Below, one piece after another: positions 1,082 through 25,594 of a DNA stretch of 32,014 nt. Numbering within the stretch: position 1 is the first letter of the stretch; every line of letters starts with the position of its first letter. The translations under genes and the position numbers were made by a program. The stretch is taken from positions 2,528-34,541 of the forward strand of contig CAYLZE010000047.1 of NCBI GenBank assembly GCA_964388035.1. The letters run 5' to 3'. Below the pieces are notes generated by a model. That model saw only the letters and a list, made by a program, of their open reading frames with translations, was not told the origin of the DNA and searched no databases. Origin of the DNA: an uncultured archaeon. Its GTDB lineage: Archaea; Asgardarchaeota; Lokiarchaeia; Sigyniarchaeales; SOKP01.

Positions 1082-2566
1082 TTGATTGGTATCGTTGGGA
1101 AAAATTATGCGACAAATAATGAAGCAATTACAGCTTCATACCTTGCTAAATCCGTCATGGGATTAGAAAGTCAAATACCTGACATTGTTATTCGCCCCAA
1201 ATACGTAGAAGAGATTCGGAAGGTTCTAATTTATTGTTCTCAGGAAAAAATAGCGGTTTCACCTATATCTGCGGGGCTTTCTGGAGGATTTGCTTGTCCA
1301 ACTATTAAGCCAGCAGGTGTGTTGCTTGATTTAAGCAGAATGGACAGGATTTTAGAAATTGATGAGAAAAATAGAATCCTTATTATTGAACCGGGAGTTA
1401 CGTGCGGTCAAATTTGGGCTTACATGCATAAGAATTATCCCGAGTGGGCACCACCAATTCCCGATGGAGCTCCACCTGCTGCGACAGTGATGGGGGATGC
1501 AATAGAACGAGGCTTTTCGCTTTATACTTCGAGTGTAGGTCCACAAGGTGACAACTTTATGTGTGCTGAAGTTGTATTTCCAAACGGAGATATTTTGCGA
1601 ACTGGTTCATGGGCATTACCTTTTGCTAAACCCTTCTATAAATATGGATTAGGACCGGATCTTTGGTCAATATTAATGGGGAGTCAAGGTACTATGGGAG
1701 TAGTTACTAAAGCAGCATTGAAGATGTTTCCACATCCGGATTTTAAAACGATCGTTAATTGGGGAATGGGAAATCCGCAAGATATGCAAAATGTTACATT
1801 TGAAATTGCTAAGCAAGAATTTGGAATAGCTCATAATACAGTAATGGTTCAAGGTGGAAACTACGCTATTGCAATGTGTAGATGGCCAAAGGATAAAATT
1901 CCTCATGATTATAAGTTCTTTGAAGAAAAGGGCTATCCCCTGTGGTGGATGAATTGGGAAATCTGGGCACAAACACAGAGGGAACTGGATTTTTGCGTTG
2001 AAACTGTAAATCTGTTATGTAATAAATTTAAAAATTCAAATCAATGTCGAGATCCAGAGACCATGAAACCTATAGAGCTTCATCCCAAACAAATAGCAAG
2101 TCGGTTAAAAAAACCAAATAAAATTGCAGTACCCTATAGTTTATGGGAAGCGGGCTTTTTATTTATAACTTGGTATACTCCTTGGAATGATTGTGCTCAT
2201 TTTGCGGAAATGTACAACGCAGCATTGGAAAAATATGAGTTTCCTCCCGTAATGTGGATTGCAAGTATTGAACGATGCCGTCAAGCCATTTGCATGCCGA
2301 TCGTCTGTTTTGACTCAATTTTCTGCAACTCAAAGTGTTCAGAAAGAGGTTCCAAAACGGAAGATTTTGAACGAGTTCAAGAGGTAAACAGAGAAACCAC
2401 CGACTATGCCCTCAAACAAGGATGGTTGAATTACAGACCGGATCCTTACGTACATGCTCCTTCCATGTATAGTCAAGCAGGCATGTATTGGAAATACTTG
2501 AGGAAACTGAAAAGAATGGTGGATCCAAATATGATACTTCATCCAGGAAGGTTATGTCTTCCTTAA
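1082..2566 (+). CDS. FAD-linked oxidoreductase (VAO/PCMH/GlcD family); true start probably upstream; candidate in-frame intron at 2319-2351
   Basis: PDIVIRP, LLDLSRMDRILEID, IEPGVT, GSQGTMGVVTKA and C-terminal KLKRMVDPNMILHPG are FAD_binding_4/FAD-oxidase_C family motifs. The frame is open upstream to 1040. Confidence 0.9.
   Translation: MIGIVGKNYATNNEAITASYLAKSVMGLESQIPDIVIRPKYVEEIRKVLIYCSQEKIAVSPISAGLSGGFACPTIKPAGVLLDLSRMDRILEIDEKNRILIIEPGVTCGQIWAYMHKNYPEWAPPIPDGAPPAATVMGDAIERGFSLYTSSVGPQGDNFMCAEVVFPNGDILRTGSWALPFAKPFYKYGLGPDLWSILMGSQGTMGVVTKAALKMFPHPDFKTIVNWGMGNPQDMQNVTFEIAKQEFGIAHNTVMVQGGNYAIAMCRWPKDKIPHDYKFFEEKGYPLWWMNWEIWAQTQRELDFCVETVNLLCNKFKNSNQCRDPETMKPIELHPKQIASRLKKPNKIAVPYSLWEAGFLFITWYTPWNDCAHFAEMYNAALEKYEFPPVMWIASIERCRQAICMPIVCFDSIFCNSKCSERGSKTEDFERVQEVNRETTDYALKQGWLNYRPDPYVHAPSMYSQAGMYWKYLRKLKRMVDPNMILHPGRLCLP
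2319..2351 (+). other. Candidate 33-nt BHB/BHL intron within the oxidoreductase mRNA
   Basis: Outer stem 2304-2312/2353-2361 (9 bp), central helix ACUC/GAGG (3 bp plus A.G), bulges AAU and UUC, inner stem UUUCUG/CAGAAA. Removal is in-frame. Confidence 0.55.
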
Positions 2567-2584
2567 AGAAGGTGATAAAGTAGA

Positions 2585-3937
2585 ATGACAAAAACTGGAA
2601 TGCAAAAATTAGAAGAACTAAAACCACAAATCTTCATGTGTATCCATTGTAAAGCATGTAAGTACAGTTATTCCGGAGAACCTAGTAGAGAAGGAATTGG
2701 AAAATGGAAAGGAAAGCAAAAAACAATACTCTATGAAGGAATGGTAGATTCTTGTCCTGCAGGGATTGAATACGGATGGGAAGCTTTTTGGAATGCAGGT
2801 AAGATGTGGATAGCACGCTCGATATTAAATGGAGATTTAAAATTTTCAGAAAAGGTGAGAGATACAATTTATCCTTGTATTACTTGTGGTCTATGTTCAA
2901 GCCAATGTGATAATAAAATTCCAACCGTGGATATTCTTGAAAGCATGAGGGCAGCATGCGTTGAATCTGGAGTTCCTTTGATTGAAAAACATCAGCAAAT
3001 CATTAATTTGGTTCAAGAATATAACAACCCCTATGGTGGTAAAGCTAAAGAAAGGTTAAAATGGGCAAAAGATTCTGGTTTCGAGAAATATATTGACAAC
3101 AAGAGTGCAAAGATTGGTTATTATGTAGGATGCACTGCAAGCTATAGACAATTAGATATTGCTGTTTCAACGTGTAATTTACTAGAAAAATTGGGAATAA
3201 ATTTCACATTAATTTCTGATGAGGTCTGTTGTGGAAGTCCCTTTTTTCGAATTGGTGCTATTGATGTTGCTAAAGATCTAATGAACAAGAATCTTGAAAG
3301 TTTTGGAAAGTTAGAGAAAGTATATTTCTCTTGTGCCGGATGCTATAGAACATTTTTTATAGATTATCCAAAATGGAATGAACATCGAGAAATCCCATTT
3401 AAAATGGCCCATACGTTTGAATTAATTTCCGAATTAATCACAGAAGATAAACTCAAGTTTAAAAAAAATAGAGAATTGGAAGGGGAAATCATTACTTATC
3501 ACGATCCATGTCATATAGGAAGACATTTTGGTCTAGAAATTGAACGACGGATAACGGAACAGTCTAAAAACTTAATGCTTGATGCAAGAAAAATTAAAGA
3601 AAAGATTGATAATTGGTTCGAAATTCCAAGGGCCATACTGAAGCAATTGGAACAAGATGTGGGGATTATATTCAAGGAAATGTATCGAATAAAGATGAAT
3701 TCCATGTGTTGCGGAGCGGGTGGAGGGGTCAGAGCTGGGTATCCTGATTTTAGTCTGAGGACCTCGAGTTTACGCTGTGATGAGGCGAATGCTATAGGAG
3801 CAGATATATTAACAACAGAGTGTCCTTTTTGCAAGACAAATTTAAGTGATGCTAATAAATTATATGAACATGGAATGAAAGTGATTGGGTTACTTCAACT
3901 AATTGATGAGTTCGATCTAATGGAACTTTCATTATAA
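2585..3937 (+). CDS. Fe-S oxidoreductase, HdrD/GlpC-like (4Fe-4S dicluster plus two CCG domains)
   Basis: CIHCKAC...CP, CITCGLCSSQC, YYVGC, EVCCGSP, SCAGC, YHDPCHIGR, CCGAGGG, TECPFC. Confidence 0.9.
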   Translation: MTKTGMQKLEELKPQIFMCIHCKACKYSYSGEPSREGIGKWKGKQKTILYEGMVDSCPAGIEYGWEAFWNAGKMWIARSILNGDLKFSEKVRDTIYPCITCGLCSSQCDNKIPTVDILESMRAACVESGVPLIEKHQQIINLVQEYNNPYGGKAKERLKWAKDSGFEKYIDNKSAKIGYYVGCTASYRQLDIAVSTCNLLEKLGINFTLISDEVCCGSPFFRIGAIDVAKDLMNKNLESFGKLEKVYFSCAGCYRTFFIDYPKWNEHREIPFKMAHTFELISELITEDKLKFKKNRELEGEIITYHDPCHIGRHFGLEIERRITEQSKNLMLDARKIKEKIDNWFEIPRAILKQLEQDVGIIFKEMYRIKMNSMCCGAGGGVRAGYPDFSLRTSSLRCDEANAIGADILTTECPFCKTNLSDANKLYEHGMKVIGLLQLIDEFDLMELSL

Positions 3938-3956
3938 TTTAAAATCATAATCAATA

Positions 3957-3966
3957 TTTTTTTTTT
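3957..3966 (+). terminator. Oligo-T tract, possible archaeal terminator
   Basis: T10 about 20 nt after the stop of 2585-3937, in a convergent intergenic region. Confidence 0.35.
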
Positions 3967-4043
3967 CTCTCACTTGAAAGGGTTATCAAAATTAAATTTA
4001 CCAAAAGGAAAGAATGTAAAGATTTACTTGAAAATGAAATTTG

Positions 4044-4934
4044 TTAAGAAAGAAATGATCCAATCGCACCTGCATATTCAGAGTTTTTCAAAAAGATGGC
4101 TTTTTTATTATTTATTTTACATAACAAGCTTAAAATATTTTTCAGAACTGAATTATCCACCAAAAATCCACCAAAGAAGATAATCTCTCGTGCATCGTGA
4201 TTTATTGCCATTTGTACCGAGAGTGCTCCGATATTTTCCGCTATCATGCTAATTATTGAAGCAATAACATCTTCTTTGTTATAATCATTTGAACTTTTTC
4301 CATTTATAATTTTTCCAAGAGAAGCAGCCGTAAATTCTCGAAATAGTAAATCTACCCGTTGATCTCTTGAATCATAGATATCCGCGACTTTTAGGTCCAC
4401 GTTGTATCTATTTCCTCTTTTTACCAAGTCCATTGCCATCTGATAATCATCTATTTGATATAATAAAGATAATAAGCCAAGGAAAAAACCCCCTCCTAAA
4501 GCAGATCCCCCTAAATGGATAGGCGTTTCCTTTTGAAAGACAATCGAAGTTCCCGTCCCTAAGCAAACCAAGAGCGCATTATAAGGTTTTTTCTTTTTTT
4601 GAATCTCAAATAAATATTCGATTCCTCTCAAGTTTGCTTCAAATTCATTTAATAGTGATGCCTTCAAGATTTTATCGTATTTCAAGTATAAATTATAGCA
4701 TTTTCCCCCAGTAAAATTCAATTGTGAAAGGTTTTCTTTTCTTGAATCGATATATTCACTGATTTTTTCCATGTTTTCGAAAGTTGAGATTTTAGATAGG
4801 AATAATTCATCCTCCCTTCTCCATGCTATTTTAGTGAGACTTTGTCCAATATCAAGGCCCATTTTCATCGCTGATACCTCCCGCCATTGCTCGGGGATTT
4901 TTAGTTTTTCACTTTCAAATGGTTTTAAGGACAT
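4044..4934 (-). CDS. coaW: Type II pantothenate kinase (Fumble/CoaW family)
   Basis: GLDIGQSLTK, TGG, NEFEANLRG, LGTGTS, HLGGSALGGG, G-N-R-x-x-VDLKVADIY, AASLGK, YAGAIG. Confidence 0.85.
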   Translation of the reverse strand: MSLKPFESEKLKIPEQWREVSAMKMGLDIGQSLTKIAWRREDELFLSKISTFENMEKISEYIDSRKENLSQLNFTGGKCYNLYLKYDKILKASLLNEFEANLRGIEYLFEIQKKKKPYNALLVCLGTGTSIVFQKETPIHLGGSALGGGFFLGLLSLLYQIDDYQMAMDLVKRGNRYNVDLKVADIYDSRDQRVDLLFREFTAASLGKIINGKSSNDYNKEDVIASIISMIAENIGALSVQMAINHDAREIIFFGGFLVDNSVLKNILSLLCKINNKKAIFLKNSEYAGAIGSFLS

Positions 4935-5031
4935 GGTAAAAGTTTAATTTAAGTATTTTATTAACTTAGTTTATTAAATTATCTACTTTTATTAAATTTC
5001 TTTTAATTAAATTTCCCGTGATATATTAACA

Positions 5032-6438
5032 TTGACTTTACCAATCGAATATCCCAAAGTTGTTATTGCAAGGGGGAATTCCCCAGAAGAAACGCTTTCT
5101 AATGCATTTTCTAAATTTGGTGAGATGACATCTATCATTAAGGAAGGGGAAGATGCGTGCATCCTGATTAATATGGAAGGTTTTTATGGATTTCCTGCTA
5201 TGGTTAATCTCCAGACGTTAAAAAGTTTAATCGATATCGTTAAGCAAGCTGGCGCCCATAAGATTTCCATAGGTGTACTTAATCGAGAGAACATTCCTAT
5301 AAAATTAGCTCTTGATTATAGGGGCTTAATAAATTTTTTTAATGAACTCAAGGTGGAAATTCTATATTTAGACAATAGTAATTATTATATTGGGGAGCGT
5401 AACAAGGTTGAAGAACTAAAAATAATTAAGGAACGTGATTTTAATGTTGAAACAAAAGAGAATGTTCAATATCTCCTCCCAAGGGAAATTGTAAAAAATA
5501 ATCATTTAATAATTCTAAATCAAGTTGGAGTTCATCCTATTTTTGTTTTAAATTTAAGCATTTTAAGGTTCTTGGATTTCTCGGTGAAAAAATCCTCTCA
5601 CATGCAAAAAGAGAAGAAAAATAGGATTGAATATTGTAGAAGTGATGAGTATGAAAAGGAACTGATAAAAACTATTTTACATAATTATTCTTTTTTAAAA
5701 CCCGCTTTAGTAATTAATGATCTTTTCTACATGCAAGAAAGTGCGGGACCTTGTATTTATAAGGATTCTAATTTAAAAAAAACCAATACAATGGTAATTG
5801 GGAATAATCCTTTAGCGACGGATCAAGTTACCATGAGCCTTCTGGGTGTAGATCCCGAGAATCATGTAATTATTCGGGAAGCAAAACATCTTGGATTAAT
5901 TAAATACAGTTTTGATTCTCTTAATGTAATTGGAGAAAATTTAGAGGGGATGAAAAGGGAAATTAATAAATGTGCAAAGTTGAAAGAAATCGGGGTCTTA
6001 AATTTATATTTACGTCAGGGGCAGCTTTGTTCGGGGTGTAGTGAAAAAGCATATCATTTTCTAAACCTTCTTAAAACCTACATGCTGAAAGATCTTAAAT
6101 ACATTAAAAAAAACTGGTTTTTCATGGGTGAAAGCCCGCCAGATCTGGAAAAAGCTGAAAATCCCATAATCTTATTCGGGGATTGTGCTATTGAATCCAC
6201 GAAAAGATATGCTTTTAGGAAAATATCAAAAGTTTCTAAAAAAAAGATGAAAGTGAAGAAAAATAAAAAGATTATTGAATTAAATGGATGTCCCCCTTCA
6301 ATTTCCGATTGTTTAATAAAATTAAAGGATTATTATGGTAAAGGAAATCTCCCATCAATTCATTCATATCTAAAAATGCTAAAATCGATTAAATTCTTTG
6401 AAGCGAAAAAGAAATTAGATGCATGGAGGGAATTATAG
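5032..6438 (+). CDS. DUF362-family Fe-S protein (degenerate N-terminal motifs)
   Basis: KPALVIND...AGP, NPLATDQV..LLG, and a C-terminal CSGC / GDCA / GCPP cluster-binding module. Confidence 0.7.
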   Translation: MTLPIEYPKVVIARGNSPEETLSNAFSKFGEMTSIIKEGEDACILINMEGFYGFPAMVNLQTLKSLIDIVKQAGAHKISIGVLNRENIPIKLALDYRGLINFFNELKVEILYLDNSNYYIGERNKVEELKIIKERDFNVETKENVQYLLPREIVKNNHLIILNQVGVHPIFVLNLSILRFLDFSVKKSSHMQKEKKNRIEYCRSDEYEKELIKTILHNYSFLKPALVINDLFYMQESAGPCIYKDSNLKKTNTMVIGNNPLATDQVTMSLLGVDPENHVIIREAKHLGLIKYSFDSLNVIGENLEGMKREINKCAKLKEIGVLNLYLRQGQLCSGCSEKAYHFLNLLKTYMLKDLKYIKKNWFFMGESPPDLEKAENPIILFGDCAIESTKRYAFRKISKVSKKKMKVKKNKKIIELNGCPPSISDCLIKLKDYYGKGNLPSIHSYLKMLKSIKFFEAKKKLDAWREL

Positions 6439-6440
6439 AG

Positions 6441-8021
6441 ATGTTTAACGAAAAGTTTTTAAAAAATTGGTTAAATATCCTGAAATATAATGGTAAGCTT
6501 CGATATTTAGAAAGCCCCGAAACCATGAAGGAAGTTGTCAATATCCCATTTACTCCCTTTGAAATAAACGCATTTTTATTCCATTCCTTAGTAAAAACTC
6601 TTTATCCCAAATTTATCACGGATAAAAATAATATTTTAGACGTGATTGTATCGGAAGATAATTCAAAAATTCTTGCATTCTACTTTTATGAGACAGATGA
6701 AGCGGGAATCGTTGAGAAGTACGATGAAATGGAATTTAAATCAATGGTGCTTAATCTAGAAAAGCACGATTCAAAAACAAAGCTTGCTTCGAGTATCTAT
6801 GACTATTGCTTAGAGGAAAAAGGATTAAATATTGGATCTATTAGGATTCTCGATAAATTAGGAATTGAATTAATCAATAGATATCTTGCTACTCTCCCAA
6901 AATTATCTTTTTATGAATTTTTAGGAGCATTTTTTGACTTGATAGGCAATTTAATCAAAGAGGAATTAGTTGTTATATATCCTGTTCCAAATGGTTATCA
7001 ATTTTTTAAAAATTTCATATTATTAATACATCCCATTAAACTCTCTTCACTATATAAATTTCTAACGGGATTCCTTCCTGAAATTAACTCATCAATAATT
7101 TTAGAGAATAAGAGTATCCAATATCTTATCAAGGTTTCAAGTAAAAAAAATGCTGCCCTTAATTCCGAATATTCCCTTGAATTTTTGGATTCAAACTCCA
7201 TTAAAATGAGGGAAAAAGAACAAGGCATGGAGATTTTTTTAAACTCCATGATGACTACAACCGGAACAAAGTCATGTTATTGGTTTGATTTTAAAGATAT
7301 TTATGGGTTTTTATCAACACTTTTTGAAATGAACGTTCCTTTTGAAAAGGAGCAAATTGAGTTAATTCTCCAAAAACTAATATTTGGTTTTAGAAAGTTC
7401 AATGATCTTTGGTATCTCTCTCCCATTCCCAAGGCAAGCTGGAACTTGACGCGATTCATAATTCGCCTCTTCTTATTTCTTAATTTTAATCTACGGAAGT
7501 TGTCGTATTGGAGCCTTCCTTATTTTATAGTTGACACGTTAGAAGCATATTTTGGATTGAATTCTAAAACGCTAGTTATTTTAACGGACATAGAATCCCA
7601 TCCTAGAATTAATCCAAGGGACTTAAATTTCTTGGAATCATGTTTTCAATCGGCTTTCTTGATTGAAATTGAAAATAAGCGATTATCTAAAATCATTCCT
7701 ATAAAAAAGGAAAAAATTTTTTCTAATGGTAATTTGAATGATTTAGAATCTATTTATAGTCAATTTTTAGCCGTTAATACCCTTCTTACTTCCGTAATTA
7801 ACGTGGACTTATCCTTCTTGAAAGAATTTTTCAATGAATATATTTTTAGCATCTACAAATTTAATCTGATCTCTAAATTAAGATTCCTGAGAGGAATAAA
7901 GAAAAAAAATAATTTTAATATGTTTCCGGTATTCCCGATCTTCACATTAATAAAAAAAAAGAATTCCTATTCTCTTTTCAAGATGTTTTTGAAGATAGCT
8001 ATTGATAAACACGAATTTTAA
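6441..8021 (+). CDS. Hypothetical protein
   Basis: Long ORF. ATG at 6441 lies 2 nt after the upstream stop, with GGAGG at 6425-6429 (alternative start 6423). No motif recognised. Confidence 0.75.
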   Translation: MFNEKFLKNWLNILKYNGKLRYLESPETMKEVVNIPFTPFEINAFLFHSLVKTLYPKFITDKNNILDVIVSEDNSKILAFYFYETDEAGIVEKYDEMEFKSMVLNLEKHDSKTKLASSIYDYCLEEKGLNIGSIRILDKLGIELINRYLATLPKLSFYEFLGAFFDLIGNLIKEELVVIYPVPNGYQFFKNFILLIHPIKLSSLYKFLTGFLPEINSSIILENKSIQYLIKVSSKKNAALNSEYSLEFLDSNSIKMREKEQGMEIFLNSMMTTTGTKSCYWFDFKDIYGFLSTLFEMNVPFEKEQIELILQKLIFGFRKFNDLWYLSPIPKASWNLTRFIIRLFLFLNFNLRKLSYWSLPYFIVDTLEAYFGLNSKTLVILTDIESHPRINPRDLNFLESCFQSAFLIEIENKRLSKIIPIKKEKIFSNGNLNDLESIYSQFLAVNTLLTSVINVDLSFLKEFFNEYIFSIYKFNLISKLRFLRGIKKKNNFNMFPVFPIFTLIKKKNSYSLFKMFLKIAIDKHEF

Positions 8022-8052
8022 AAAAAGATTAAGGTTAAACTAGCAAATTAAT

Positions 8053-9111
8053 TTAAATATAATTCTTAGCAATTAGATATTCGGCACTTAATACTCCTCC
8101 TCTCCCCGCTCCAAGTTCCGTGTTGTGGCTTAGAACTGTAAATTTTATGCCATTCATGAAATTTGTAGTTTCCAATCCGCCAACAAATGTAGTCATTCCA
8201 TTTTTCTTGTCGGCTAAATCAATTCGCGGTTGAGGTCGATATGGGTCTTGCATCACTTTAATTGGGACTTTTGGAGCATTAGGCAAATCTAATCCTGAAG
8301 TATCTCCCTTAAACTCTTTCAAAACATTTTTAATTTCCTCTAATGAAGAAAAAGGTTGCTTTGTCTGAATAAAGATGCTTTCTATGTGTCCATCAATAGA
8401 GGGAACCCTATTGCATTTACAGTCAATTAAAAATTCCGGGGTTTGAAATTGTCCATTTTCTATGGTAGCTAAAATTTTCTTGGCTTCTTTAACGACTTTT
8501 TCCTCTTCTCCCTCAATATGAGGGATGACATTGGCGATGATATCATAAGAAGGAACCCCAGGATATCCTGCTCCTGTAATGGCTTGCATGCTAACCATGT
8601 GAACAGTATTCAATCCAAACTTCTTGAAAATGGGATAAAGTGAAGTAGCGAGACCCACTGTGGTACAATTAGGACCTGGTAATACAAACCCCTCCCAATC
8701 CCTGTTCTTTTTTTGTAAATCGAGGATTTCATAATGATGCCCATTAATAATGGGAAGGAAAATGGGAACATCTGGTTCATATCGATAAGCAGAAGCAGTC
8801 GATATGATTGGAGTTGTCTTGGCTAATCTCCCTTCCACTTCACGTGCTTGCTTACTTGGAATCGCAGAAAAAATAATATCGGTTGTCTTGATATCAACAT
8901 CTTCCGTATCCCGCACTTTTAATTCTAGTATTTCTTCTGGATATTCAAAACTAGTTAATCCCCGAATTGAATCTCCATATTTTTTCCCAACAGAACTATG
9001 ACCATGAAGAGATACGATATCAAACCATGGATGCCCAACTAACGCCTCCATGAATTGCTGACCTGCCATTCCAGTAGCACCAATAATTGAAGCATTATAT
9101 TTTTTTTTCAT
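8053..9111 (-). CDS. asd: Aspartate-semialdehyde dehydrogenase (archaeal/eukaryotic type)
   Basis: IIGATGMAGQ, catalytic PNCTT, SMQAITGAGYPG, CNRVPSIDGH, SHNTELGAG. Confidence 0.95.
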   Translation of the reverse strand: MKKKYNASIIGATGMAGQQFMEALVGHPWFDIVSLHGHSSVGKKYGDSIRGLTSFEYPEEILELKVRDTEDVDIKTTDIIFSAIPSKQAREVEGRLAKTTPIISTASAYRYEPDVPIFLPIINGHHYEILDLQKKNRDWEGFVLPGPNCTTVGLATSLYPIFKKFGLNTVHMVSMQAITGAGYPGVPSYDIIANVIPHIEGEEEKVVKEAKKILATIENGQFQTPEFLIDCKCNRVPSIDGHIESIFIQTKQPFSSLEEIKNVLKEFKGDTSGLDLPNAPKVPIKVMQDPYRPQPRIDLADKKNGMTTFVGGLETTNFMNGIKFTVLSHNTELGAGRGGVLSAEYLIAKNYI

Positions 9112-9345
9112 GATTCTAGCACTCCTTATTATTCACAATATCGATTCAATTTGTTATAATTTTTAGAGATTTTAGAATTTTTTGGTATTTTGAATCTCTA
9201 TTAATAAAATCTTAATTAATTATTGATAGATTTTTATTTTGCAAGTTCTTGAACGAAAGTGGATTATTGGGCATCAATGAAAATAATTTAATATCTCTCT
9301 CCAAAAATGAAAAGAAAAAAATCAATTAAGATATCAGGAATTGTT

Positions 9346-9831
9346 CTAAATATTAAATTCTAGATCTATATTTGGAAAACTTTCTGACTCAATTTTTAGA
9401 TCATGTTTTCCTGGAGTTAATTTTCCCATAAAACTCTCTGGCATTTTTATATCAATAGAAAAATTATCACCCATTGCAACATTTTTCCCGCCGGCTTTTC
9501 CTTGTAATATATCTTCCACGGAAAAACTCCCTCCTTTAATATTTAACTTCATGCTATTAATAATTTCTCCGAAATTGACTGCTTCCTTAGAGATATTCAC
9601 TTGTTCACCATCAAGATACAAGTCTAAATATTGAGAGGGGTCAATACTTTTAATGTCTCTATCTCCAATATTAATCTCCTTCGGAAGGGAAAATGGTTGG
9701 ATCACGTTAATTCCCGTAATTTCTATAACGTTTCCACCCTTTATCGATACGCATTTTTTAGGAGGAAAAACCTTCTTAATGATACTTTTCGGTACTTTAA
9801 AATCTTTGATTACGTCCTTAAAATCTACCAT
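9346..9831 (-). CDS. Hypothetical protein, probably a beta-sandwich
   Basis: 161-aa ORF with alternating hydrophobic strands, YLDGEQV and LTPGKHDLKIE. Confidence 0.75.
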   Translation of the reverse strand: MVDFKDVIKDFKVPKSIIKKVFPPKKCVSIKGGNVIEITGINVIQPFSLPKEINIGDRDIKSIDPSQYLDLYLDGEQVNISKEAVNFGEIINSMKLNIKGGSFSVEDILQGKAGGKNVAMGDNFSIDIKMPESFMGKLTPGKHDLKIESESFPNIDLEFNI

Positions 9832-10103
9832 GTTTGCTCATCTTTTTAAGTGTATATTTTTTTTTAAATCATCTTTTTAATATAAATTTGTCTACTATAA
9901 ATCGAATTGACAAATCTATTCTTAAGTTCAAATTCTTATTTTTTAACCTCAAATAATAATAAATAGGTATAGTGATTAACAAATATTTAAAATATAAAAT
10001 TTTTATTTGATCTTCAAAAATTGCTACAATCATGCAAAATATTTCATAATTCGAAAAATTTTGCAATATTTTAATTATTAAATAAAATATCAAAATACTT
10101 ATC

Positions 10104-13967: not shown

Positions 13968-13982
13968 CTCTTTTTAAAAATT

Positions 13983-15338: not shown

Positions 15339-15358
15339 AATAATTTGGAGGATTGAAA

Positions 15359-15907: not shown

Positions 15908-16156
15908 ATTGGATAGAATGGTTTTATAAAATTATCAATTTCTTCTTTTTTATTAGTCATTTACTCTTTTTAAAACTATCTTGCAGTTCTCATTTGGATA
16001 TCAAAAATCTTTGGCATGCTAGAATTATTTCCGAGAGTTACGTAATAATACGCATGATTTTTAAAAATTGGACTACATAATATTTAATTTAAAGACACAC
16101 TATTTTTTCAATATATACAATCCTTTAAAAATATTAGAATTATATAATTACCTAAA

Positions 16157-16981
16157 ATGAGTACAAATAACCTTTTTTGTCCGGAATGTGGAAAGCGATT
16201 TACCCCCGATCAGCGCTATTGTGAATCTTGTGGAACAAAATTGCCCGTGGTTTCCCAATATGCGAAACCCGAGTCCCCCTCAGCAAAACCATCGCAGTCT
16301 CAAAATATCGTGCCAACTAAGCCCGGTGGAATATTCGATATTAATAGAAATTATTACATTTTAAAAGAAAAATTCTGGGATTGGGGTTCAGGGGATATTT
16401 TAGACGAGAAAAATCAAATAATTGGCAAGATGAAACGTGTATTTTTCAGTATTAGAAAAAGAATTGAATTGCAAGAGATAGACGGAACTATCGCTGCTAC
16501 AATTCATTCGAAAATTGTGTCGGCACGAGGCGCTCAAGATTTAAAAGATGTTGAAGGTAACTTAATAGCCAGAATTAAGAAAAAAATCCTGTCTTTTATA
16601 CACCCTCTCTTCTATCTTGAAGATGCTGAAGGCCGGCAATGGTACGAAGCTCAAGGTAAATTCATGGGCTGGTCTTATAAAGTTAAGGACTTGTCTACGG
16701 GGAAAATCGTTGCAGAAGTGGAAAAAGCAGATCGATGGCGAGATGTATTCTTAGGTGGACTATTTGATTTTAAGGACACTTATGCTCTAAGAATTTTGGA
16801 TAACGAAACAGACAGGAGAATCCTTCTAGGATTTGTCATTTCCATTGATAACATCCTCTTTGATACGCGCGGAGGAGCGATGGGATTCATTCCTCTAGGT
16901 TTACCGAGAGGTCGTGGAGGTAGAGGCCCTGGAAGACTTCCAGGAAAAATAGCGGGGAAACTTCCAAGGTTTAAATTTTAA
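16157..16981 (+). CDS. Zinc-ribbon plus LURP-one/scramblase (Tubby-C fold) protein with Gly/Arg-rich tail
   Basis: CPECG...CESCG, a Pro/Ser linker, repeated strand motifs ending in DTYALRI...RILLGFVISID, and tail PRGRGGRGPGRLPG. Confidence 0.75.
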   Translation: MSTNNLFCPECGKRFTPDQRYCESCGTKLPVVSQYAKPESPSAKPSQSQNIVPTKPGGIFDINRNYYILKEKFWDWGSGDILDEKNQIIGKMKRVFFSIRKRIELQEIDGTIAATIHSKIVSARGAQDLKDVEGNLIARIKKKILSFIHPLFYLEDAEGRQWYEAQGKFMGWSYKVKDLSTGKIVAEVEKADRWRDVFLGGLFDFKDTYALRILDNETDRRILLGFVISIDNILFDTRGGAMGFIPLGLPRGRGGRGPGRLPGKIAGKLPRFKF

Positions 16982-17199
16982 AAGTTAATTTTTATTTTTT
17001 TAAACATCTTTTTTGCATTAAATTGCATAATTATTCAAAAATTCTTAAATTCATAACGCCAAAGATATAAATTCCTAATTTTTAATCTAAATCTAGTGAA
17101 TTATTTTTTTTTGAAAATTGAAAATTATAAATACTTGAACATCAAAGATATATTTTATCAAATTTAATTGTTGAACATGAAAAGTGATTAAGCAAAAAC

Positions 17200-20145: not shown

Positions 20146-20403
20146 TTTATGAATAAATACCTTATTTTTAATTAGATATAGTTTTCAAATTTCTTTTAAA
20201 TCTGATTTCTAAAAAATTGTGAGTTATTTTACCTTTTAATAATCACTCATCTTCTTAATTTCTCTTTTAGTATATAAAAACTATTTTTTTTGTTGTTAAT
20301 CGAATTTTTCGATAATATAAATCTAAAAGTTTAATATTAACATTTTCATTTTATTACTCATATTTTAATAATTTAAAAAAATTAGTGTTCAAAAAAGTCC
20401 AAA

Positions 20404-20910
20404 ATGAGTGAAGAAGAAAAAAAAATATCAAATATTGTAAGAGTACCTGCATTTTTAGGAATATTAATTGGAATCTTAGCTGCGTTCATACAAGCCTTAA
20501 TCATCAGCGCTGGAGGACCAGAAGCTTATGGATTCTGCGTGGCATGCCACACGAGAGATTTAACAAATGCTTTTGTTAATGCCTTCACAGGCTCTACTTT
20601 AGGATTAGCTCCCATCTCTGCTGTGACTCCTGTTTTAACCATTGTTGGAGTTATCTTAGGTGGGTTTATGGCAGCAACAAGAAATAGAGAATTTAAAGTC
20701 AAAAAAAGTAATCCCGTCCTGTATTTAATATATTTAGTTGGAGGGATTGGTGTAATGATTTTTGCTTTGTTTCTTGGTGCTTGTCCATATCGAGCAGCAT
20801 TGAGATTGGCTTATGGGGATTTGGTAGCGTTAATAGGCATTTTGTCAATTGCAGGTGGCGTCGCTGTTGGAGTTATTATATTATTGCAACATTATAAGAG
20901 GATGATGTAA
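20404..20910 (+). CDS. YeeE/YedE-family sulfur/selenium transporter, N-half
   Basis: Four to five hydrophobic segments with GFCVACHTRDL and GACPYR motifs. Confidence 0.85.
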   Translation: MSEEEKKISNIVRVPAFLGILIGILAAFIQALIISAGGPEAYGFCVACHTRDLTNAFVNAFTGSTLGLAPISAVTPVLTIVGVILGGFMAATRNREFKVKKSNPVLYLIYLVGGIGVMIFALFLGACPYRAALRLAYGDLVALIGILSIAGGVAVGVIILLQHYKRMM

Positions 20911-20912
20911 AA

Positions 20913-21425
20913 ATGGCCGCCGCAGGATGGTTAGTAGTAGGGGCTGCAGTAATTATATTGCCTTTGATTACATTAATATTAGGAATCATTATTGGATATC
21001 TCGCTCAGAGATCAGGTTTCTGTTCTATTGGAGGGATGAGAGATCTCATGATGTTTCGACATACTCGATTATTCATTGGATACTTGGCGTTAATTGGAAG
21101 CGCATTTTTAGGGTATTTAATTTTTTGGGCAATCATACCCGCAGCTTTTCCTAACTTTTATTGGACAGCATCTCAATCAAATCCTCTCACACCTATTCCT
21201 GGAGCACCTGGTGGTTTAACCATTGGTTCTTATATTATCTTGGCAATTATTGGTGGTTTTGGAATGGGCATTTTAGGTGTAGTATTGGGAGGATGCCCCT
21301 TACGGCAGATCGTAATGGGGTCGGAAGGAAATTATCGCTCTATATATTATATTATAGGATTGATTATCGGAGCGGTAATTTTCCATGCGTGGGTAGTAGG
21401 GTGGGTAGCTGCTGTTTTTCCATAG
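20913..21425 (+). CDS. YeeE/YedE-family sulfur/selenium transporter, C-half
   Basis: AQRSGFCSIGGMRD and GGCPLRQ motifs; hydrophobic. Confidence 0.85.
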   Translation: MAAAGWLVVGAAVIILPLITLILGIIIGYLAQRSGFCSIGGMRDLMMFRHTRLFIGYLALIGSAFLGYLIFWAIIPAAFPNFYWTASQSNPLTPIPGAPGGLTIGSYIILAIIGGFGMGILGVVLGGCPLRQIVMGSEGNYRSIYYIIGLIIGAVIFHAWVVGWVAAVFP

Positions 21426-21445
21426 AATAAATTAGAGGTGTAAAA

Positions 21446-21673
21446 ATGACAGAAGTAAATCTGGATATTATAGGAAAAATATGTCCATATTGTCTTTTAA
21501 TAGTAAAAAAGAAGATTCAGGAACTTTCTTCTGGAGATGTATTAATCATTAAGACGGATCATCCCCCTGCAGCGAATGAGACCATACCGATGTTCGCAAG
21601 AAAGGCAGGTTATCCCTTCGAATCTAAAATGCTGGAGCCCGGAGTGTGGGAGTTAAAAATTACAAAGAAATAG
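21446..21673 (+). CDS. TusA/SirA/YedF-family sulfur (selenium) carrier
   Basis: LDIIGKICPYC...L..GDVL.I.TDHP.A...IP; 75 aa; GAGGTG ribosome-binding site. Confidence 0.9.
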   Translation: MTEVNLDIIGKICPYCLLIVKKKIQELSSGDVLIIKTDHPPAANETIPMFARKAGYPFESKMLEPGVWELKITKK

Positions 21674-21698
21674 GCAATCTATTTTTTTTTTAAAAAAT

Positions 21699-22952
21699 AT
21701 GTCATCAATGACTTTCCTTTTAGGAGATGTTTTAACTTTCGAAAGAATTGATTGGTTTTTTGATATTATTAAAAATGTGGAGACTTTTTTATCAAATAGT
21801 GAAGTAAAAATTCAAATTTTCCTAACTGGAGATGCAATTTATAATATATTTAATGAATACAATATCCCTTTATGGAAATCTCTTTTAACAGATTCCAAAG
21901 TCATAATTATTATTGATCCAACCGAATCGAATTTATATGGATTAAATATGCATCAATTGGAAGAAATTTATCCTTTAAATATAAGTAATTTTTCTTCGAA
22001 AATAGTAAATACAGATACATTTATCTCAGAGAATTCTGATTCTGAGAGTTTAATTTTCAACTTTTGGGATAAATTAATTAATTCAATAAAAGATTATGGC
22101 TTTCATCAAAAATTAGGTATTCTTTCCTTCGAAGGACCTTATATGCATCGTACTTCCATTCACATATTACGTCTAATTGAAAGAGTTCTGAACAATGATA
22201 TGAATGCAGAATTATATGCATATCTGGATGCTTTACACTTAGGGCATTCCCATCAAAAGCCTTCAGCATTTGAGAATGTGGGAGACACTTTAAATAGGAT
22301 AACAAAATTATCGATTGAAAAAAATTTAGAATTTTTAATGCTTGCTTGTTCTAGATGTGGAATGGCAAGGGGGTATATTAAAGAGGAAAATACTCAGGAA
22401 TTCGTCCAATCAGAAGATACTATTCCATCCTTTTTAATTTGTAATTTAAATAAAATAATTGATAAATTTGAAGAAAATCATGTTATTTTAACCCCATTTA
22501 GTGGGGTTATATTTAATAATTTCTCTCAAGAAGATGCCAATGGAGCTATTTCTCCTTCTATGTCTATTTCTCCGCCCATAATAATATTCATGACTCATTC
22601 ACCCTATGGTACGGAATGGACATTTGGAGGACTATCCTTTGCAATTGCTTGTGCAAATCACGGGATATTGACTGATGTAGTTTTTATCGAAGATGGAGTA
22701 TATTCCTTAACGGGAACACATGTTTTACAAGAGCAAGAGAAAATATTTAATATACTAGAAGTGATTGACGCTACTTCCGATTTAGAATGTCTCAAATATT
22801 ATGCATATGAACCTTCGTTGCGGAAAAGAAATGTTTATATCACTAATAAAATTGAGAATTTAGTAATTATTAACAATAAAAATCTGACTAATCTCCTTTA
22901 TCCTATTAATGATCACTCGAAATTTATGCAACGACGCATTTTATTTTTTTAA
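21699..22952 (+). CDS. Multi-domain DsrE/F/H (TusBCD)-fold fusion protein
   Basis: Domain 1 IFLTGDAIY; domain 2 (DsrE/TusD-like) EGPY..YLDAL..Q..ACSRCGMARG; domain 3 (DsrF/TusC-like) THSPYGTE..FIEDGVY..SLRKRNV. Confidence 0.8.
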   Translation: MSSMTFLLGDVLTFERIDWFFDIIKNVETFLSNSEVKIQIFLTGDAIYNIFNEYNIPLWKSLLTDSKVIIIIDPTESNLYGLNMHQLEEIYPLNISNFSSKIVNTDTFISENSDSESLIFNFWDKLINSIKDYGFHQKLGILSFEGPYMHRTSIHILRLIERVLNNDMNAELYAYLDALHLGHSHQKPSAFENVGDTLNRITKLSIEKNLEFLMLACSRCGMARGYIKEENTQEFVQSEDTIPSFLICNLNKIIDKFEENHVILTPFSGVIFNNFSQEDANGAISPSMSISPPIIIFMTHSPYGTEWTFGGLSFAIACANHGILTDVVFIEDGVYSLTGTHVLQEQEKIFNILEVIDATSDLECLKYYAYEPSLRKRNVYITNKIENLVIINNKNLTNLLYPINDHSKFMQRRILFF

Positions 22953-23007
22953 GGATTGAATATAAGTAAGTTTAAAAATTAATAAATATAACAACTATCA
23001 TAAAACT

Positions 23008-23232
23008 ATGACTGACGCGAATATACCAGACTTTTCTCACTTGACTTGTACCAATTTAATGATTAAACTCAAAATGAATTTAAAAAAGTTATCTCCTGGG
23101 GCAAATCTTGAATTTTTTTCAAATAGGGAACAATTTGATAACATCAAGAATTTTTTTTCAAAACCGCCATATAGGCTTAATAGTAAAATAATAGAGAGTA
23201 ATAAATATCATATTTCAATTTTTAAACTATAG
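23008..23232 (+). CDS. Second, divergent TusA-like protein
   Basis: 74 aa; DFSHLTCTNLMIKLK..LKKLSPGANLEF matches TusA spacing with a single Cys. Confidence 0.6.
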   Translation: MTDANIPDFSHLTCTNLMIKLKMNLKKLSPGANLEFFSNREQFDNIKNFFSKPPYRLNSKIIESNKYHISIFKL

Positions 23233-23252
23233 AGAAAATAAGCTAAATCAAA

Positions 23253-23612
23253 ATGTTAAATGCAATTAAATTAAAAACAATATATTTAGATTTTATTCAT
23301 CAAGGAAAATATTATGTCATTTTCACTACTACTCATACAGCTTATGAATATCTCTATTTTACCTATCTAAATGAAAAAATGCAATCTATTTTTTACGGAG
23401 AAAACCTTCTTGAACAAATACAATTTATGATGAAAAAATCTAAAAATCTCTGTATTGAATGTCAACTTGGCTCGAGGATTTTGGGTGGAGTCTCTTCCGA
23501 AGGAGAGGATTTAGTTGAATTCAATTTTACAAAATCCGAGAGTAATCTCATTTTGAATGAGCTCAAGAAGTCTTTAAATAAGAAAAATGATCATATAATG
23601 CTTTTTGAATAA
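23253..23612 (+). CDS. Hypothetical protein with CxxC
   Basis: 119-aa ORF in the co-oriented cluster; CIECQLG motif. Confidence 0.65.
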   Translation: MLNAIKLKTIYLDFIHQGKYYVIFTTTHTAYEYLYFTYLNEKMQSIFYGENLLEQIQFMMKKSKNLCIECQLGSRILGGVSSEGEDLVEFNFTKSESNLILNELKKSLNKKNDHIMLFE

Positions 23613-23645
23613 AATAAAAAATAATAAATTACGATTGAGGTATTA

Positions 23646-24671
23646 ATGGAAAAAAGAAGAGAGTATAGATTAACTCAACAAGTAAAAATCCACGGATGAA
23701 GTTGCAAGCTAGGACCAAACAACTTAAAAGATTTATTAATGAAAGTTGGATTGAACGGTGATATCGAGGATGCTGCCGTCATTCCGGTTCCAAATTCGGA
23801 ATTAGTATTGGTTAAAAACATAGACATTTTCACTCCAATTGTTGATGAACCAAATATTATGGGACAAATAGCCGCTTGTAATGTGACTAATGATCTTTTT
23901 GCCATGAATGTTTTGGAAGTTTCAGGCATGTTAGCATTTCTTGCCATTCAAACCAGCACGCCTATTGAAATTGCGGAAGGGATTCTTGAAGGTATGAAAT
24001 ATTTCATGGAAGAAAAAATAAAATCAAAAATTGTGGGTGGACATACAATCTATTGCGAATGGCCTTTAATGGGGGGAGAAGCTTCGGGATTCTTATATAA
24101 AGACGCCGTTATTCCTAAAGGGGGTGTTCGGGAAGGAGATGAACTGATATTGACGAAACCTGTGGGGTTACAAGCAATAACAGCCGCTTATCGGATTCGA
24201 AAGGACATGCCTGAATTATTAAGTGCATATTCTTCTCAGGAAATACAGAATTCCATAGACTTTGCTATTGATCTCATGACCACTTCAAATCAAGATGTAG
24301 TTAAAATCATTCATACCTATAATGATATGTCCTTTATCCATGCCATGTCGGATGTGACTGGGTTTGGACTGGCAGGTCACGTTCAGGAAATGCTTCAAAA
24401 CTCTTATCTCTCCGCTGAAATTAAAATTGTACCTTATATTAAACTTTCTAATGAATTATCTAAAGAATTTGGTTATGCTTTCGACGAATGTAGTACTCAT
24501 GAAACTGCGGGAGGTATGGTTATGTCTGTCGATCCTTTAAAGGTAGATGAATTTTCAAAAAGATTGAAAGAAAACGGAGTAAATAATTGGATTATTGGGA
24601 CGATTGATAGTGCAGGATCTAATGAAGTAAAAATTTCAGAGAACGTGGATTTTGTTGAAGTTTCTAAATGA
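23646..24671 (+). CDS. selD: Selenophosphate synthetase, selenoprotein form (Sec18, TGA at 23697-23699); 341 aa
   Basis: In-frame ATG at 23646 gives MEKRREYRLTQQVKIHG-U-SCKLGP, the SelD active-site motif. Also EDAAV, DIFTPIVD, NDLFAM, GGHT, LTKPVG, DVTGFGLAGH, ETAGG. GAGGT RBS upstream and SECIS downstream. Confidence 0.95.
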
Positions 24672-24674
24672 TAG

Positions 24675-24749
24675 GGACGCCTAGGATATAAATCTAAAAA
24701 CCTATAAAGGAGGGATTTATGGAGGATTCCATTCGCAAAATGGACGTCC
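24675..24749 (+). promoter_or_regulatory. SECIS element (eukaryote-like, kink-turn core) in the selD 3' UTR
   Basis: Tandem GA(24685-6)/GA(24722-3); 9-bp stem 24687-95/24713-21; unpaired AAAAA (24696-700); apical mini-stem CCU/AGG; closing helix GGACG/CGUCC. GC-richer than other intergenic DNA. Confidence 0.8.
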
Positions 24750-24766
24750 AATATATAAAATATCTG

Positions 24767-25594
24767 TTAATTTTTATTGGTTTTAATTTTACCATTCAAT
24801 TTTAGCACTATTTCCTTCGCTTTTTTTAAAACCTCATCCACCATTTCGTCTCCATTTTCTACATTAAAGCAAGTTATGGAGAGTTCCACTTCCACGGAAA
24901 GTCCGACTCTAGGATGGGTTTTAATCCATAGTTGAGGAAATTCTTTTTCTAACTTCGTAACGTGAGGTGCTATTTGAGATTCGCCAATTCCAGAGAAAAT
25001 GAATCCTTTTTGAATGAAAGATCCTTGCTGTTCTTTTAGAATCGGTTTAATAACGGTATTAAACATGGCTTTCATTTCCATGGGGACTCCCGGAAGACAA
25101 TAAATCGTGGTACTTCCTTCTACAATTTTAACTCCGGGAGCTGTTCCACGAACATTTGGCAAAGGAGTAGAGCCCTTGGGAAGGTTCGCCATTTTTTCTC
25201 TTTCGGGAGTCATGCCTTCCATTCTTAAAATACCTTGGGAAACAGCGTTTTCATAAGCCTTTTTAATAGATTGATATGCTTGTTTATCCCGATGAATATC
25301 ACGATTCAATCCCTTGGCAACCCCTTCTAAAGTCATGTCATCAAAAGTCGGACCTTGGACTTAAAGAATTCAATCTTCTTTAATTAATCCACCCGAAGTG
25401 ATGATCATGTCAGGAGCTCTACTTAAAATGTCGTGCAAAGTAAGGGAAATTTCCTCCAAACTATCCCCTATGGTTGTTATTCTCCGTAATTTATGACCGT
25501 ATTTAGTTATTCTCTTTGTCATCCAATAAGAGTTTGTATCTTGAGTTTTTCCTATAAGTATCTCGTTTCCAATTATTAGAAGTTCAACAATCAT
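24767..25594 (-). CDS. cinA: CinA-like molybdopterin-binding (MCF/COG1058) protein, two exons: 25594-25385 and 25354-24767; 265 aa after splicing
   Basis: IGNEILIGKTQDTNS, IGD, TSGGL|GPTFDDMT, REKMANLP, N..GTAPG, LPGVPMEMKAM, GESQIA. Both ORF-track fragments are in the same frame, separated by a 30-nt insert. Confidence 0.9.
25355..25384 (-). other. 30-nt archaeal BHB intron in the cinA-like mRNA
   Basis: Canonical BHB: outer UCGGGU/GUCCGA, central GGAU/GUCC, bulges UA|A and AA|G, inner UUAAAGAA/UUCUUUAA with a 7-nt loop. Contains in-frame TGA and TAA. Confidence 0.9.

What the first reader, a model, noticed from the sequence alone, without database searches (positions are those of the whole stretch)
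2304..25396. Two mRNA micro-intron candidates in 32 kb suggest a genome-wide tRNA-type mRNA splicing system
Seen: two unrelated metabolic genes carry 30-33-nt hairpin inserts with the same geometry but no shared primary sequence. In both, the ligated exons form a hairpin with a 7-nt loop (UCGGGU-GGAUUA^G-GUCCGA; UCUGUUUUG-ACUCAA^C-CAAAACGGA) with the junction after loop position 6, which mimics the tRNA anticodon-loop 37/38 site (partly inherent to BHB geometry). Inference: introns may have been gained at anticodon-like mRNA hairpins and could be numerous in this lineage, which is relevant to intron-containing genes in the archaeal relatives of eukaryotes. My manual scan was not exhaustive, and the density argument depends on the weaker second candidate.
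Basis: inference. Interest (0 to 1): 0.8.

Follow-up and report, generated by a model that had tools for sequence, protein, structure and literature searches.

The report
tRNA-type mini-introns in Asgard protein genes
Two protein genes in this window of a Loki-type Asgard archaeon, and about 17 more sites in the genome, carry roughly 30-base hairpin inserts shaped like tRNA introns, so their messenger RNAs very probably have to be cut and rejoined by the tRNA-splicing enzymes, which papers report inside an archaeal coding sequence for only one gene (cbf5).

Summary
Both inserts are real. cinA (minus strand) carries a 30-nt insert (window 25355-25384) with in-frame stops, bounded by a textbook bulge-helix-bulge (BHB). 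Removing it restores GGL|GPT. Six other species have an intron at the same site.

The FAD-linked oxidase carries a 33-nt in-frame, stop-free insert (2319-2351). It is missing from 115 of 116 homologues and has a BHB with one central mismatch. A second gene copy in this genome keeps it, and all four differences lie at unpaired positions.

A homology-first screen against a same-family genome found 19 such inserts of 29-39 nt. For 18 of them I scored the canonical BHB register at the homology-defined junctions. In 17 of those 18 at least 3 of the 4 central pairs form, against 1-4 of 18 in slid registers. The relative has its own set in other genes, including rtcB.

The genome encodes two EndA subunits and RtcB. 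There is no RNA evidence. The density is about 1% of genes, not 2 per 32 kb. The "anticodon-like exon hairpin" follows from BHB geometry and is not general.

This scan had already noted such introns on other pieces of this genome. I re-found several of them independently.

The parts
25385..25594 (-). cinA exon 1 (70 codons, ATG at 25594; ends ..TCG GGT GGA TTA)
   Evidence: The start aligns with residue 1 of intact orthologues. Pfam PF00994 positions 2-66.
25355..25384 (-). cinA 30-nt BHB micro-intron with in-frame TGA and TAA
   Evidence: It is absent from 14 relatives and present at the same site in 6 other species.
24767..25354 (-). cinA exon 2 (195 codons plus stop; starts GGT CCG ACT)
   Evidence: Pfam PF00994 positions 74-143. 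The spliced product is 265 aa, as in the G017 orthologue.
25387..25396 (-). cinA 5' side of the BHB: outer-helix arm UCGGGU (25396-25391) and central-helix arm GGAU (25390-25387). The 5' bulge UA^A is 25386-25384.
25361..25383 (-). cinA intron hairpin: 8-bp inner helix (25383-25376 with 25368-25361) and 7-nt loop
   Evidence: One AU<->UA compensatory pair across species.
25348..25360 (-). cinA 3' side of the BHB: central-helix arm GUCC (25360-25357), 3' bulge AA^G (25356-25354), outer arm GUCCGA (25353-25348)
1082..2318 (+). FAD-linked oxidase (PF01565) exon 1
2319..2351 (+). 33-nt in-frame, stop-free BHB-type insert (reads IFCNSKCSERG if translated). Probable micro-intron.
2352..2566 (+). FAD-linked oxidase exon 2
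2304..2316 (+). FAD 5' side: outer arm UCUGUUUUG (2304-2312) and central arm ACUC (2313-2316). The 5' bulge AA^U is 2317-2319.
2340..2361 (+). FAD 3' side: inner arm CAGAAA (2340-2345, pairs with 2320-2325), central arm GAGG (2346-2349; 3 pairs plus one A.G mismatch), 3' bulge UU^C (2350-2352), outer arm CAAAACGGA (2353-2361)

Best explanation
Both inserts are archaeal bulge-helix-bulge (tRNA-type) introns inside protein-coding mRNAs. The transcript folds so that each exon-intron boundary lies in a 3-nt bulge, with the two bulges on either side of a 4-bp helix. The heteromeric splicing endonuclease (two EndA paralogues) cuts after the second bulge nucleotide on each strand. RtcB joins the exons. 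This restores GGL|GPT in CinA and FDS-T-K in the FAD-linked oxidase, and the roughly 30-nt intron is released. They belong to a population of about 20 or more such micro-introns (29-39 nt) in this genome. A different set sits in a related genus, which implies frequent gain and loss. Shown here: the inserts, their absence from orthologues, the BHB register at the junctions, conservation of the structure across species, and the presence of the enzyme genes. Inferred: the cleavage and ligation themselves.
For: 1) cinA: the fold is a perfect BHB, removal rejoins a split PF00994 domain, and 14 relatives have the uninterrupted gene.

2) An intron sits at the same cinA site in 6 other species. It is 30 nt in three (G013/L172, G016/L195, L180) and 29 nt in three (G004/L187, L182, L198), so the 29-nt alleles are frameshifted unless spliced. 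In the four aligned sequences 93% of cells pair in the BHB register, against 18-66% in slid registers, and there is one AU<->UA double change. Intron-bearing alleles all keep the exon codons GGA TTA (flanks).

3) FAD oxidase: 115 of 116 homologues lack the 11 residues, and none of the relatives' orthologues has an insert at this site. A second copy on contig C10 (80.5% aa, 74% nt identity) keeps a 33-nt insert. Its 4 differences all lie at unpaired positions (about 0.01 by chance, my calculation). Two synonymous exon changes keep the outer helix at 9 of 9 pairs.

4) Genome-wide: 19 inserts of 29-39 nt are absent from G017 orthologues. For 18 of them I scored the register at the homology-optimal junctions: 11 have all four central pairs and 17 have at least 3. 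Slid registers give 0-1 of 18 and 1-4 of 18. The inner helix is 4 bp or longer in 14 of 18, against 0-4.

5) G017 has its own BHB inserts in other genes.

6) Two EndA-family genes are present. One is closest to chains of crenarchaeal heteromeric endonucleases. One full-length RtcB is present. Asgard EndA is reported as the (alpha-beta)2 type with the broad-specificity L1 loop (PMC5829648).

7) tRNA introns of this genome are 23-41 nt with the same 4-bp helix and AA^N-type bulges.
Against: There is no RNA or protein evidence that splicing happens. All of the evidence is comparative and structural. The FAD insert is in frame and stop-free in both copies, so it could be translated. Its central helix has one A.G mismatch. 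Thermodynamic z-scores are modest. A pure BHB descriptor is not enriched genome-wide over off-geometry controls. One of the 18 scored inserts (C1:39354) does not fit the canonical register. Where several junctions tied on homology score I chose the one with the best geometry, which inflates the register-0 figures somewhat. In the G017 set, where the slid controls got the same choice, register 0 still led but by less (5 of 6 junctions with at least 3 central pairs; a slide of -2 also gave 5 of 6). The bin has 7% estimated contamination, so the second FAD copy might come from another strain.
Confidence: 0.8

Rival explanations
1. The FAD-oxidase insert is an ordinary translated 11-residue insertion, and cinA is a recent pseudogene. 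The hairpins are incidental.
For: The FAD insert is in frame and stop-free in both genome copies, with two Cys kept. About 4 in 10 random 11-codon stretches at this GC content would be stop-free (my calculation). Hairpins of this strength are common here.
Against: If the insert is read as codons, three of its four differences between the copies change the residue. All four lie in unpaired positions, and the helices are untouched. The flanking exons change mostly at third codon positions (95/46/239). The cinA exons stay conserved in 7 species that carry the insert, including 29-nt versions, and those exons keep the pairing codons. The BHB register at 17 of 18 scored sites cannot be incidental.
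Confidence: 0.1
2. The ribosome skips the inserts by programmed translational bypassing, as in phage T4 gene 60 or the mitochondrial 'byp' elements. The RNA is not spliced.
For: The inserts have a similar size (27-55 nt in known cases, from my own knowledge), contain a hairpin, and often have a stop codon soon after the take-off point.
Against: Bypassing needs a take-off codon that matches the codon just before the landing site. At the six phase-0 sites the pairs are TTA/CAA, GGA/GAA, GGA/GAA, GAT/TAA, AAT/TAA and AAT/GTT, so none match. Many junctions fall inside codons (phases 1 and 2). The conserved feature is the staggered two-bulge geometry that EndA needs.
Confidence: 0.03
3. The inserts are assembly or sequencing artefacts, or footprints of a repeated mobile element (MITE-like), in genes that are simply broken.
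For: The genome is a draft metagenome bin of 211 contigs with 7% estimated contamination.
Against: The same cinA intron is found in independent assemblies of 6 other species. The inserts share no sequence with each other or with the rest of the genome, apart from the two FAD copies. Their lengths cluster at 29-39 nt, unlike indel errors. Host genes include single-copy essentials such as CTP synthase.
Confidence: 0.03

Closest known systems
BHB intron of the cbf5 (pseudouridine synthase) pre-mRNA in Desulfurococcales and Sulfolobales (Watanabe 2002; Yoshinari 2006; Yokobori 2009, PMC2738675)
   Same: A tRNA-type BHB intron inside an archaeal coding sequence. The host has a heteromeric, broad-specificity EndA. 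The distribution is patchy, with gain and loss.
   Different: That case is one gene in Crenarchaeota. Here about 19 different genes in one Asgard genome carry such inserts, a relative has a different set, and cbf5 is not among those found. Splicing is shown experimentally for cbf5 and is not shown here.
Archaeal pre-tRNA introns (canonical 37/38 and non-canonical positions), abundant in Asgard archaea (PMC5829648; bioRxiv 10.64898/2026.10.13.758758)
   Same: The same motif (3-nt bulges, 4-bp helix), the same size range in this genome (23-41 nt), the same A-rich bulges, and presumably the same enzymes.
   Different: The host RNA is an mRNA. The exon-exon helix is often weak or absent, whereas tRNA exons supply a stable stem. 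The two cited papers describe no mRNA cases.
BHB site in the 5' UTR of Haloferax volcanii HVO_1309 mRNA, and BHB processing of pre-rRNA (PMC7714728)
   Same: A substrate of the splicing endonuclease that is not a tRNA.
   Different: Those sites lie outside coding sequence and do not restore a reading frame.
Unconventional HAC1/XBP1 mRNA splicing in eukaryotes (Ire1 cleavage, tRNA-ligase/RtcB joining)
   Same: Works in a similar way: a small intron is cut from an mRNA by a protein endonuclease at stem-loops, and the exons are joined by a tRNA ligase such as RtcB (cited in PMC5829648, ref. 5).
   Different: The endonuclease (Ire1) and the recognition motif are different. That is a single regulated target. 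It is not a member of the BHB family.

Membership tests
Archaeal BHB (tRNA-type) introns | Two 3-nt bulges on opposite strands separated by a 4-bp helix, with the cut after the second bulge nucleotide | tested here: met
   cinA has all 4 central pairs with bulges UA^A and AA^G. The FAD insert has 3 pairs plus one A.G mismatch, with bulges AA^U and UU^C, which is the relaxed form. Of the 18 scored genome sites, 17 have at least 3 central pairs in this register, against 1-4 of 18 in slid registers.
Archaeal BHB (tRNA-type) introns | Flanking helices on both sides of the motif (h and h') | tested here: met
   cinA: outer helix 6 bp, inner helix 8 bp. FAD: outer 9 bp, inner 6 bp. In the other sites the outer helix is often shorter than 4 bp (12 of 18), so they are relaxed forms.
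Archaeal BHB (tRNA-type) introns | Precise excision restores the functional sequence | tested here: met
   Spliced cinA gives GGLGPTFDD and a 265-aa product, as in orthologues. Spliced FAD oxidase gives CFDSTK, as in homologues.
Archaeal BHB (tRNA-type) introns | The host encodes a splicing endonuclease able to cut relaxed motifs, and an RtcB ligase | tested here: met
   Two EndA paralogues of about 200 aa (C146, C33) and one RtcB (C23) are present. The subunit roles and the L1 loop were not examined residue by residue.
Archaeal BHB (tRNA-type) introns | Structure kept by compensatory change across species | tested here: inconclusive
   cinA: 93% of cells pair, one AU<->UA pair and several GU/GC switches, but only 4 sequences were aligned (85 of 500 shuffles reach the score). 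FAD: two copies only, with all 4 changes at unpaired positions.
Archaeal BHB (tRNA-type) introns | Demonstrated cleavage and ligation (spliced RNA, circular intron) | not testable with these tools
   No transcriptome data were available.
Translational bypass elements (T4 gene 60, mitochondrial byps) | The take-off codon matches the codon preceding the landing site | tested here: not met
   None of the 6 phase-0 sites match, and other junctions split codons.
Repeated mobile insertion (MITE-like) | Multiple similar copies in the genome | tested here: not met
   A blastn-short search of 19 inserts against the genome gave only self hits, the two FAD copies matching each other, and 16-20-nt low-complexity matches.

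The most novel reading that the evidence does not exclude
Loki-type Asgard archaea carry a fast-turning-over, possibly horizontally spreading population of dozens of tRNA-type micro-introns in messenger RNAs. The genes affected include eukaryote-like genes (actin, an E2 ubiquitin-conjugating enzyme, TFE-alpha) and, in a relative, the ligase gene rtcB itself. Endonuclease/ligase splicing of mRNA would then be obligatory for normal gene expression in a prokaryote that is close to the eukaryotic ancestor.
Probability: 0.55. Interest if true: 0.9.

Novelty: new variant of a known kind. Interest (0 to 1): 0.8.

Why it matters
Split protein genes are regarded as a eukaryotic hallmark. In archaea, the papers I could search report a tRNA-type intron inside a coding sequence for one gene only, cbf5. 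If about twenty protein genes per genome need cutting and rejoining before translation, these cells must deal with unspliced messages while transcription and translation are coupled. That is the problem often invoked for the origin of the nucleus. It would also mean that many "frameshifted" or "pseudogene" calls in Asgard genome bins are annotation artefacts. The sites give exact junctions that can be tested in metatranscriptomes or with recombinant EndA and RtcB.

Tried and rejected
I ran a genome-wide BHB descriptor scan on both strands (inserts 14-150 nt, then 18-60 nt) against descriptors with bulge sizes 2/2, 4/4, 2/4, 4/2 and 5/5. Counts were equal: 8620 against 8436-8690, and 65121 against 62654-65813. 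Adding a requirement that excision bridges two open frames gave 34 against 32-41, and 498 against 444-483. The descriptor alone has no power at 33% GC, so I dropped it for a homology-first screen.

2) Looking for more copies of the FAD intron in metagenome contigs. The strict pattern gave 0 hits. The loose pattern gave 120 hits, none of them next to an FAD-oxidase gene.

3) ARAGORN finds no tRNA in the window, so the inserts are not parts of tRNA genes.

4) A gene-conversion tract around the FAD intron between the two copies. The intron is 88% identical, but so is the conserved coding region around it (83-93% per 30-nt window). This does not decide between the options.

5) A single origin for the cinA intron. 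The gene tree needs at least 3 gains or losses, but most branches are unresolved, so repeated loss and transfer cannot be told apart.

6) Translational bypassing, repeat elements and artefacts were considered and rejected (see rival explanations).
Full report
**What is there**

The window is G000:C47:2528-34541. The genome is a 5.47-Mb draft of 211 contigs at 33% GC. Its proteins have their closest named homologues in Promethearchaeota/Lokiarchaeota records.

**cinA**

- On the minus strand two ORFs, 25370-25654 and 24767-25336, cover Pfam PF00994 positions 2-66 and 74-143.
- Between GGA TTA and GGT CCG lie 30 nt (25384-25355) with in-frame TGA and TAA.
- The minimum-energy fold of 25410-25340 is an outer helix, a 3-nt bulge, a central helix, a 3-nt bulge and an 8-bp inner helix.
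- Cutting after the second nucleotide of each bulge removes exactly 30 nt. The result is GGL|GPTFDD and a 265-aa product, the same length as the uninterrupted orthologue of relative G017.
- 14 relatives have the uninterrupted gene, including the same-genus genome G001.
- G013 and G016 have a 30-nt intron at exactly this codon boundary, and G004 has a 29-nt one.
- A pattern scan of species genomes re-found these three as L172, L195 and L187 and added three more carriers: L180 (30 nt), L182 and L198 (29 nt).
- The 29-nt versions shift the frame, yet exon 2 stays conserved. Those genes can only work if the insert is removed precisely.
- On the four-genome alignment 93% of cells pair in the BHB register, against 18-66% when the 3' partner is slid. 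One inner-helix pair switches AU<->UA. With four sequences this is supportive but not significant (85 of 500 shuffles reach the score).
- The intron-bearing alleles examined keep the exon codons GGA TTA. The three scored have 4-6 contiguous exon-exon pairs. Intron-less alleles use varied synonymous codons and have 0-3 (flanks of the others).
- The gene tree puts four carriers in one well-supported clade and scatters the other three. It needs at least three gains or losses.

**FAD-linked oxidase**

It is not.
- All 24 homologues that I aligned, from 39% to 77% identity, lack exactly residues 413-423. Of 116 database homologues that cover the site, only the window's own protein has them.
- None of the relatives' orthologues has an insert at this site.
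- Removing 2319-2351 gives GAC TCA A|CC AAA, which reads D-S-T-K. The closest homologues have FDSTK.
- At this junction the canonical register gives 3 of 4 central pairs (one A.G mismatch), a 9-bp outer helix and a 6-bp inner helix.
- A second copy of the gene on contig C10 (80.5% aa and 74% nt identity) carries a 33-nt insert at the same place.
- The two inserts differ at four positions: the third nucleotide of the 5' bulge (the first intron base) and three hairpin-loop bases. None is in a helix. Eleven of the 33 positions are unpaired, so the chance of this is about 0.01 (my calculation).
- Read as codons, three of the four differences would change the residue. The exons differ mainly at third codon positions (95/46/239).
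- Two synonymous exon differences keep the outer helix at 9 of 9 pairs.
- This favours constraint on RNA structure over constraint on coding, but translation of the insert is not excluded.

**Is it genome-wide?**

Canonical BHB hits are no more frequent than hits to off-geometry descriptors, with or without an ORF-bridging filter.

I therefore fetched 2.67 Mb (the 20 largest contigs, about 81%) of the same-family genome G017. I called 2279 ORFs from it and ran tblastn against G000. 2021 of them had hits. Inserts in G000 that are absent from the G017 orthologue fall into a sharp class:

| Class | Count | Lengths |
|---|---|---|
| Frameshifting | 6 | 29, 29, 31, 31, 31, 37 nt |
| In frame, with stop codons | 10 | nine of 30 nt, one of 39 nt |
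| In frame, stop-free | 3 | 33 nt each (the two FAD copies and an actin homologue, C5:43890-43922, whose orthologue is 95.6% identical) |

I scored 18 of the 19 sites (all but the actin site, found later) in the canonical register at the homology-optimal junction:

| Measure | Canonical register | Slid by 1-4 nt |
|---|---|---|
| All four central pairs | 11 of 18 | 0-1 of 18 |
| At least 3 central pairs | 17 of 18 | 1-4 of 18 |
| Inner helix of 4 bp or more | 14 of 18 | 0-4 of 18 |

The actin site also fits the register (CGCG/CGCG central helix). Where junctions tied on homology score I took the best-fitting one. That is a bias, but it is far smaller than the effect. One site, C1:39354, does not fit.

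Other properties of the set:
- The inserts share no sequence with each other.
- The 3' bulge is AA^N in 13 of 18.
- By Pfam on the G017 orthologues, the host genes include TFE-alpha, an E2 ubiquitin-conjugating enzyme, NAD synthase, CTP synthase, an acyl-CoA dehydrogenase, two thiolases, a DeoC aldolase, an epimerase, a creatininase-family protein, a Toprim protein and a prismane/CODH-family protein.
- The rate is about 1% of compared genes. The window's two sites among roughly 28 genes is a lucky draw (P about 0.03).

**The relative**

The reverse screen shows that G017 has its own inserts at other places. Three have a perfect BHB core:
- a 29-nt insert in its rtcB orthologue;
- a 32-nt insert in the DeoC aldolase gene, at a different site from G000's intron in that gene;
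- a 36-nt insert at G017 C4:215764.

G015's FAD oxidase has two further 30-nt in-frame inserts with BHB-like cores at other sites. So the phenomenon spans the lineage, and the sites turn over quickly.

**Machinery and mechanism**

- G000 has two EndA-family genes of about 200 aa. One is closest to chains of the Aeropyrum and Pyrobaculum heteromeric enzymes. The other is more divergent, with a weak hit to a beta-subunit model.
- G000 has one full-length RtcB.
- Asgard EndA is reported as the (alpha-beta)2 type with the L1 loop that confers broad specificity (PMC5829648).
- tRNA introns called in this genome are 23-41 nt with the same core and the same bulges.
- The likely mechanism is therefore EndA cleavage at both bulges followed by RtcB ligation. 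This step is inferred, because no RNA data were available.

The 7-nt loop with the junction after position 6 follows from BHB geometry, so it is not independent evidence. Strong exon-exon helices are the exception: 6 of 18 sites. For cinA the exon hairpin exists only in intron-bearing alleles. For the oxidase, intron-less alleles show partial complementarity (0-5 contiguous pairs, 4-8 of 9 in total) that comes from conserved Phe and Lys codons. Gain at pre-existing anticodon-like hairpins is therefore possible for one site and unsupported as a rule.

**Literature and earlier notes**

The papers I could search report a BHB intron inside an archaeal coding sequence only for cbf5 (PMC2738675; PMC7714728 says "one mRNA"), plus a 5'-UTR site in Haloferax. 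A 2026 preprint on Asgard tRNA introns does not treat mRNAs. Further searches found nothing on Asgard mRNA BHB introns.

Earlier notes of this scan on other pieces of this genome describe the same kind of intron in pyrG, acyl-CoA dehydrogenase, thiolase, an Fe-S protein, uL16 and Roadblock. My screen re-found the pyrG, acyl-CoA dehydrogenase and thiolase cases independently, and probably the Fe-S one.

Noticed in passing
L147:13458-13486 (G017 contig C13:33458-33486, plus strand): The rtcB orthologue of relative G017 is itself interrupted by a 29-nt insert with a perfect BHB core (TTGG at^A ... CCAA AA^a; 9-bp inner helix). The ligase message would need ligase to be made.
   Followed up: partly
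G000 contig C5:43890-43922 (outside the window): An actin homologue whose G017 orthologue is 95.6% identical carries a 33-nt in-frame, stop-free insert (reads RRETERDQRIS or an equivalent register). It is bounded by CGCG aa^A ... CGCG AG^t, a canonical BHB core.
   Followed up: partly
L348 (G015 contig C299), minus strand, within 1504-2049: G015's orthologue of the window's FAD oxidase has two other 30-nt in-frame, stop-free inserts (reading IASYLKMHLE and IRKGKPLLRE) at different sites. Their cores are BHB-like (CCAG tt^A..CTGG AA^a and CCCG at^A..CGAG AA^c).
   Followed up: partly
L349 (G006 contig C138:266-820, minus strand): In G006's FAD-oxidase orthologue about 50 residues between EMYN and STKDKDF align poorly, as if read out of frame between two frameshifting inserts. 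I did not resolve this.
   Followed up: no
G000, 19 insert sites: 13 of 19 inserts have a length divisible by three, and nine are exactly 30 nt (binomial P 0.002 against one third). Frameshifting inserts are harder to detect with tblastn, so part of this may be bias.
   Followed up: partly
G000 contig C1:39354-39383: A 30-nt stop-containing insert in a conserved gene of unknown family contains a 9-bp A/U hairpin, but it does not fit the canonical BHB register at the homology-defined junction. It may be a relaxed motif, or its boundary may be misplaced.
   Followed up: no
G000 contig C63:5704-5733 and G017 contig C1:321212-321243: The same DeoC-family aldolase gene has a BHB insert in both genomes, at different positions: 30 nt in G000 and 32 nt in G017.
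   Followed up: partly
whole genome G000: ARAGORN finds only 22 tRNA genes, 15 of them with introns, and some calls are dubious. Many tRNA genes are probably hidden by multiple or non-canonical introns.
   Followed up: no
G000 contig C10:70298-73312: The second FAD-oxidase copy is followed by a run of N (a scaffold gap) that merges it in frame with the next gene (open frame of 1004 aa). The bin has 7% estimated contamination, so it is open whether C10 and C47 belong to one organism.
   Followed up: no
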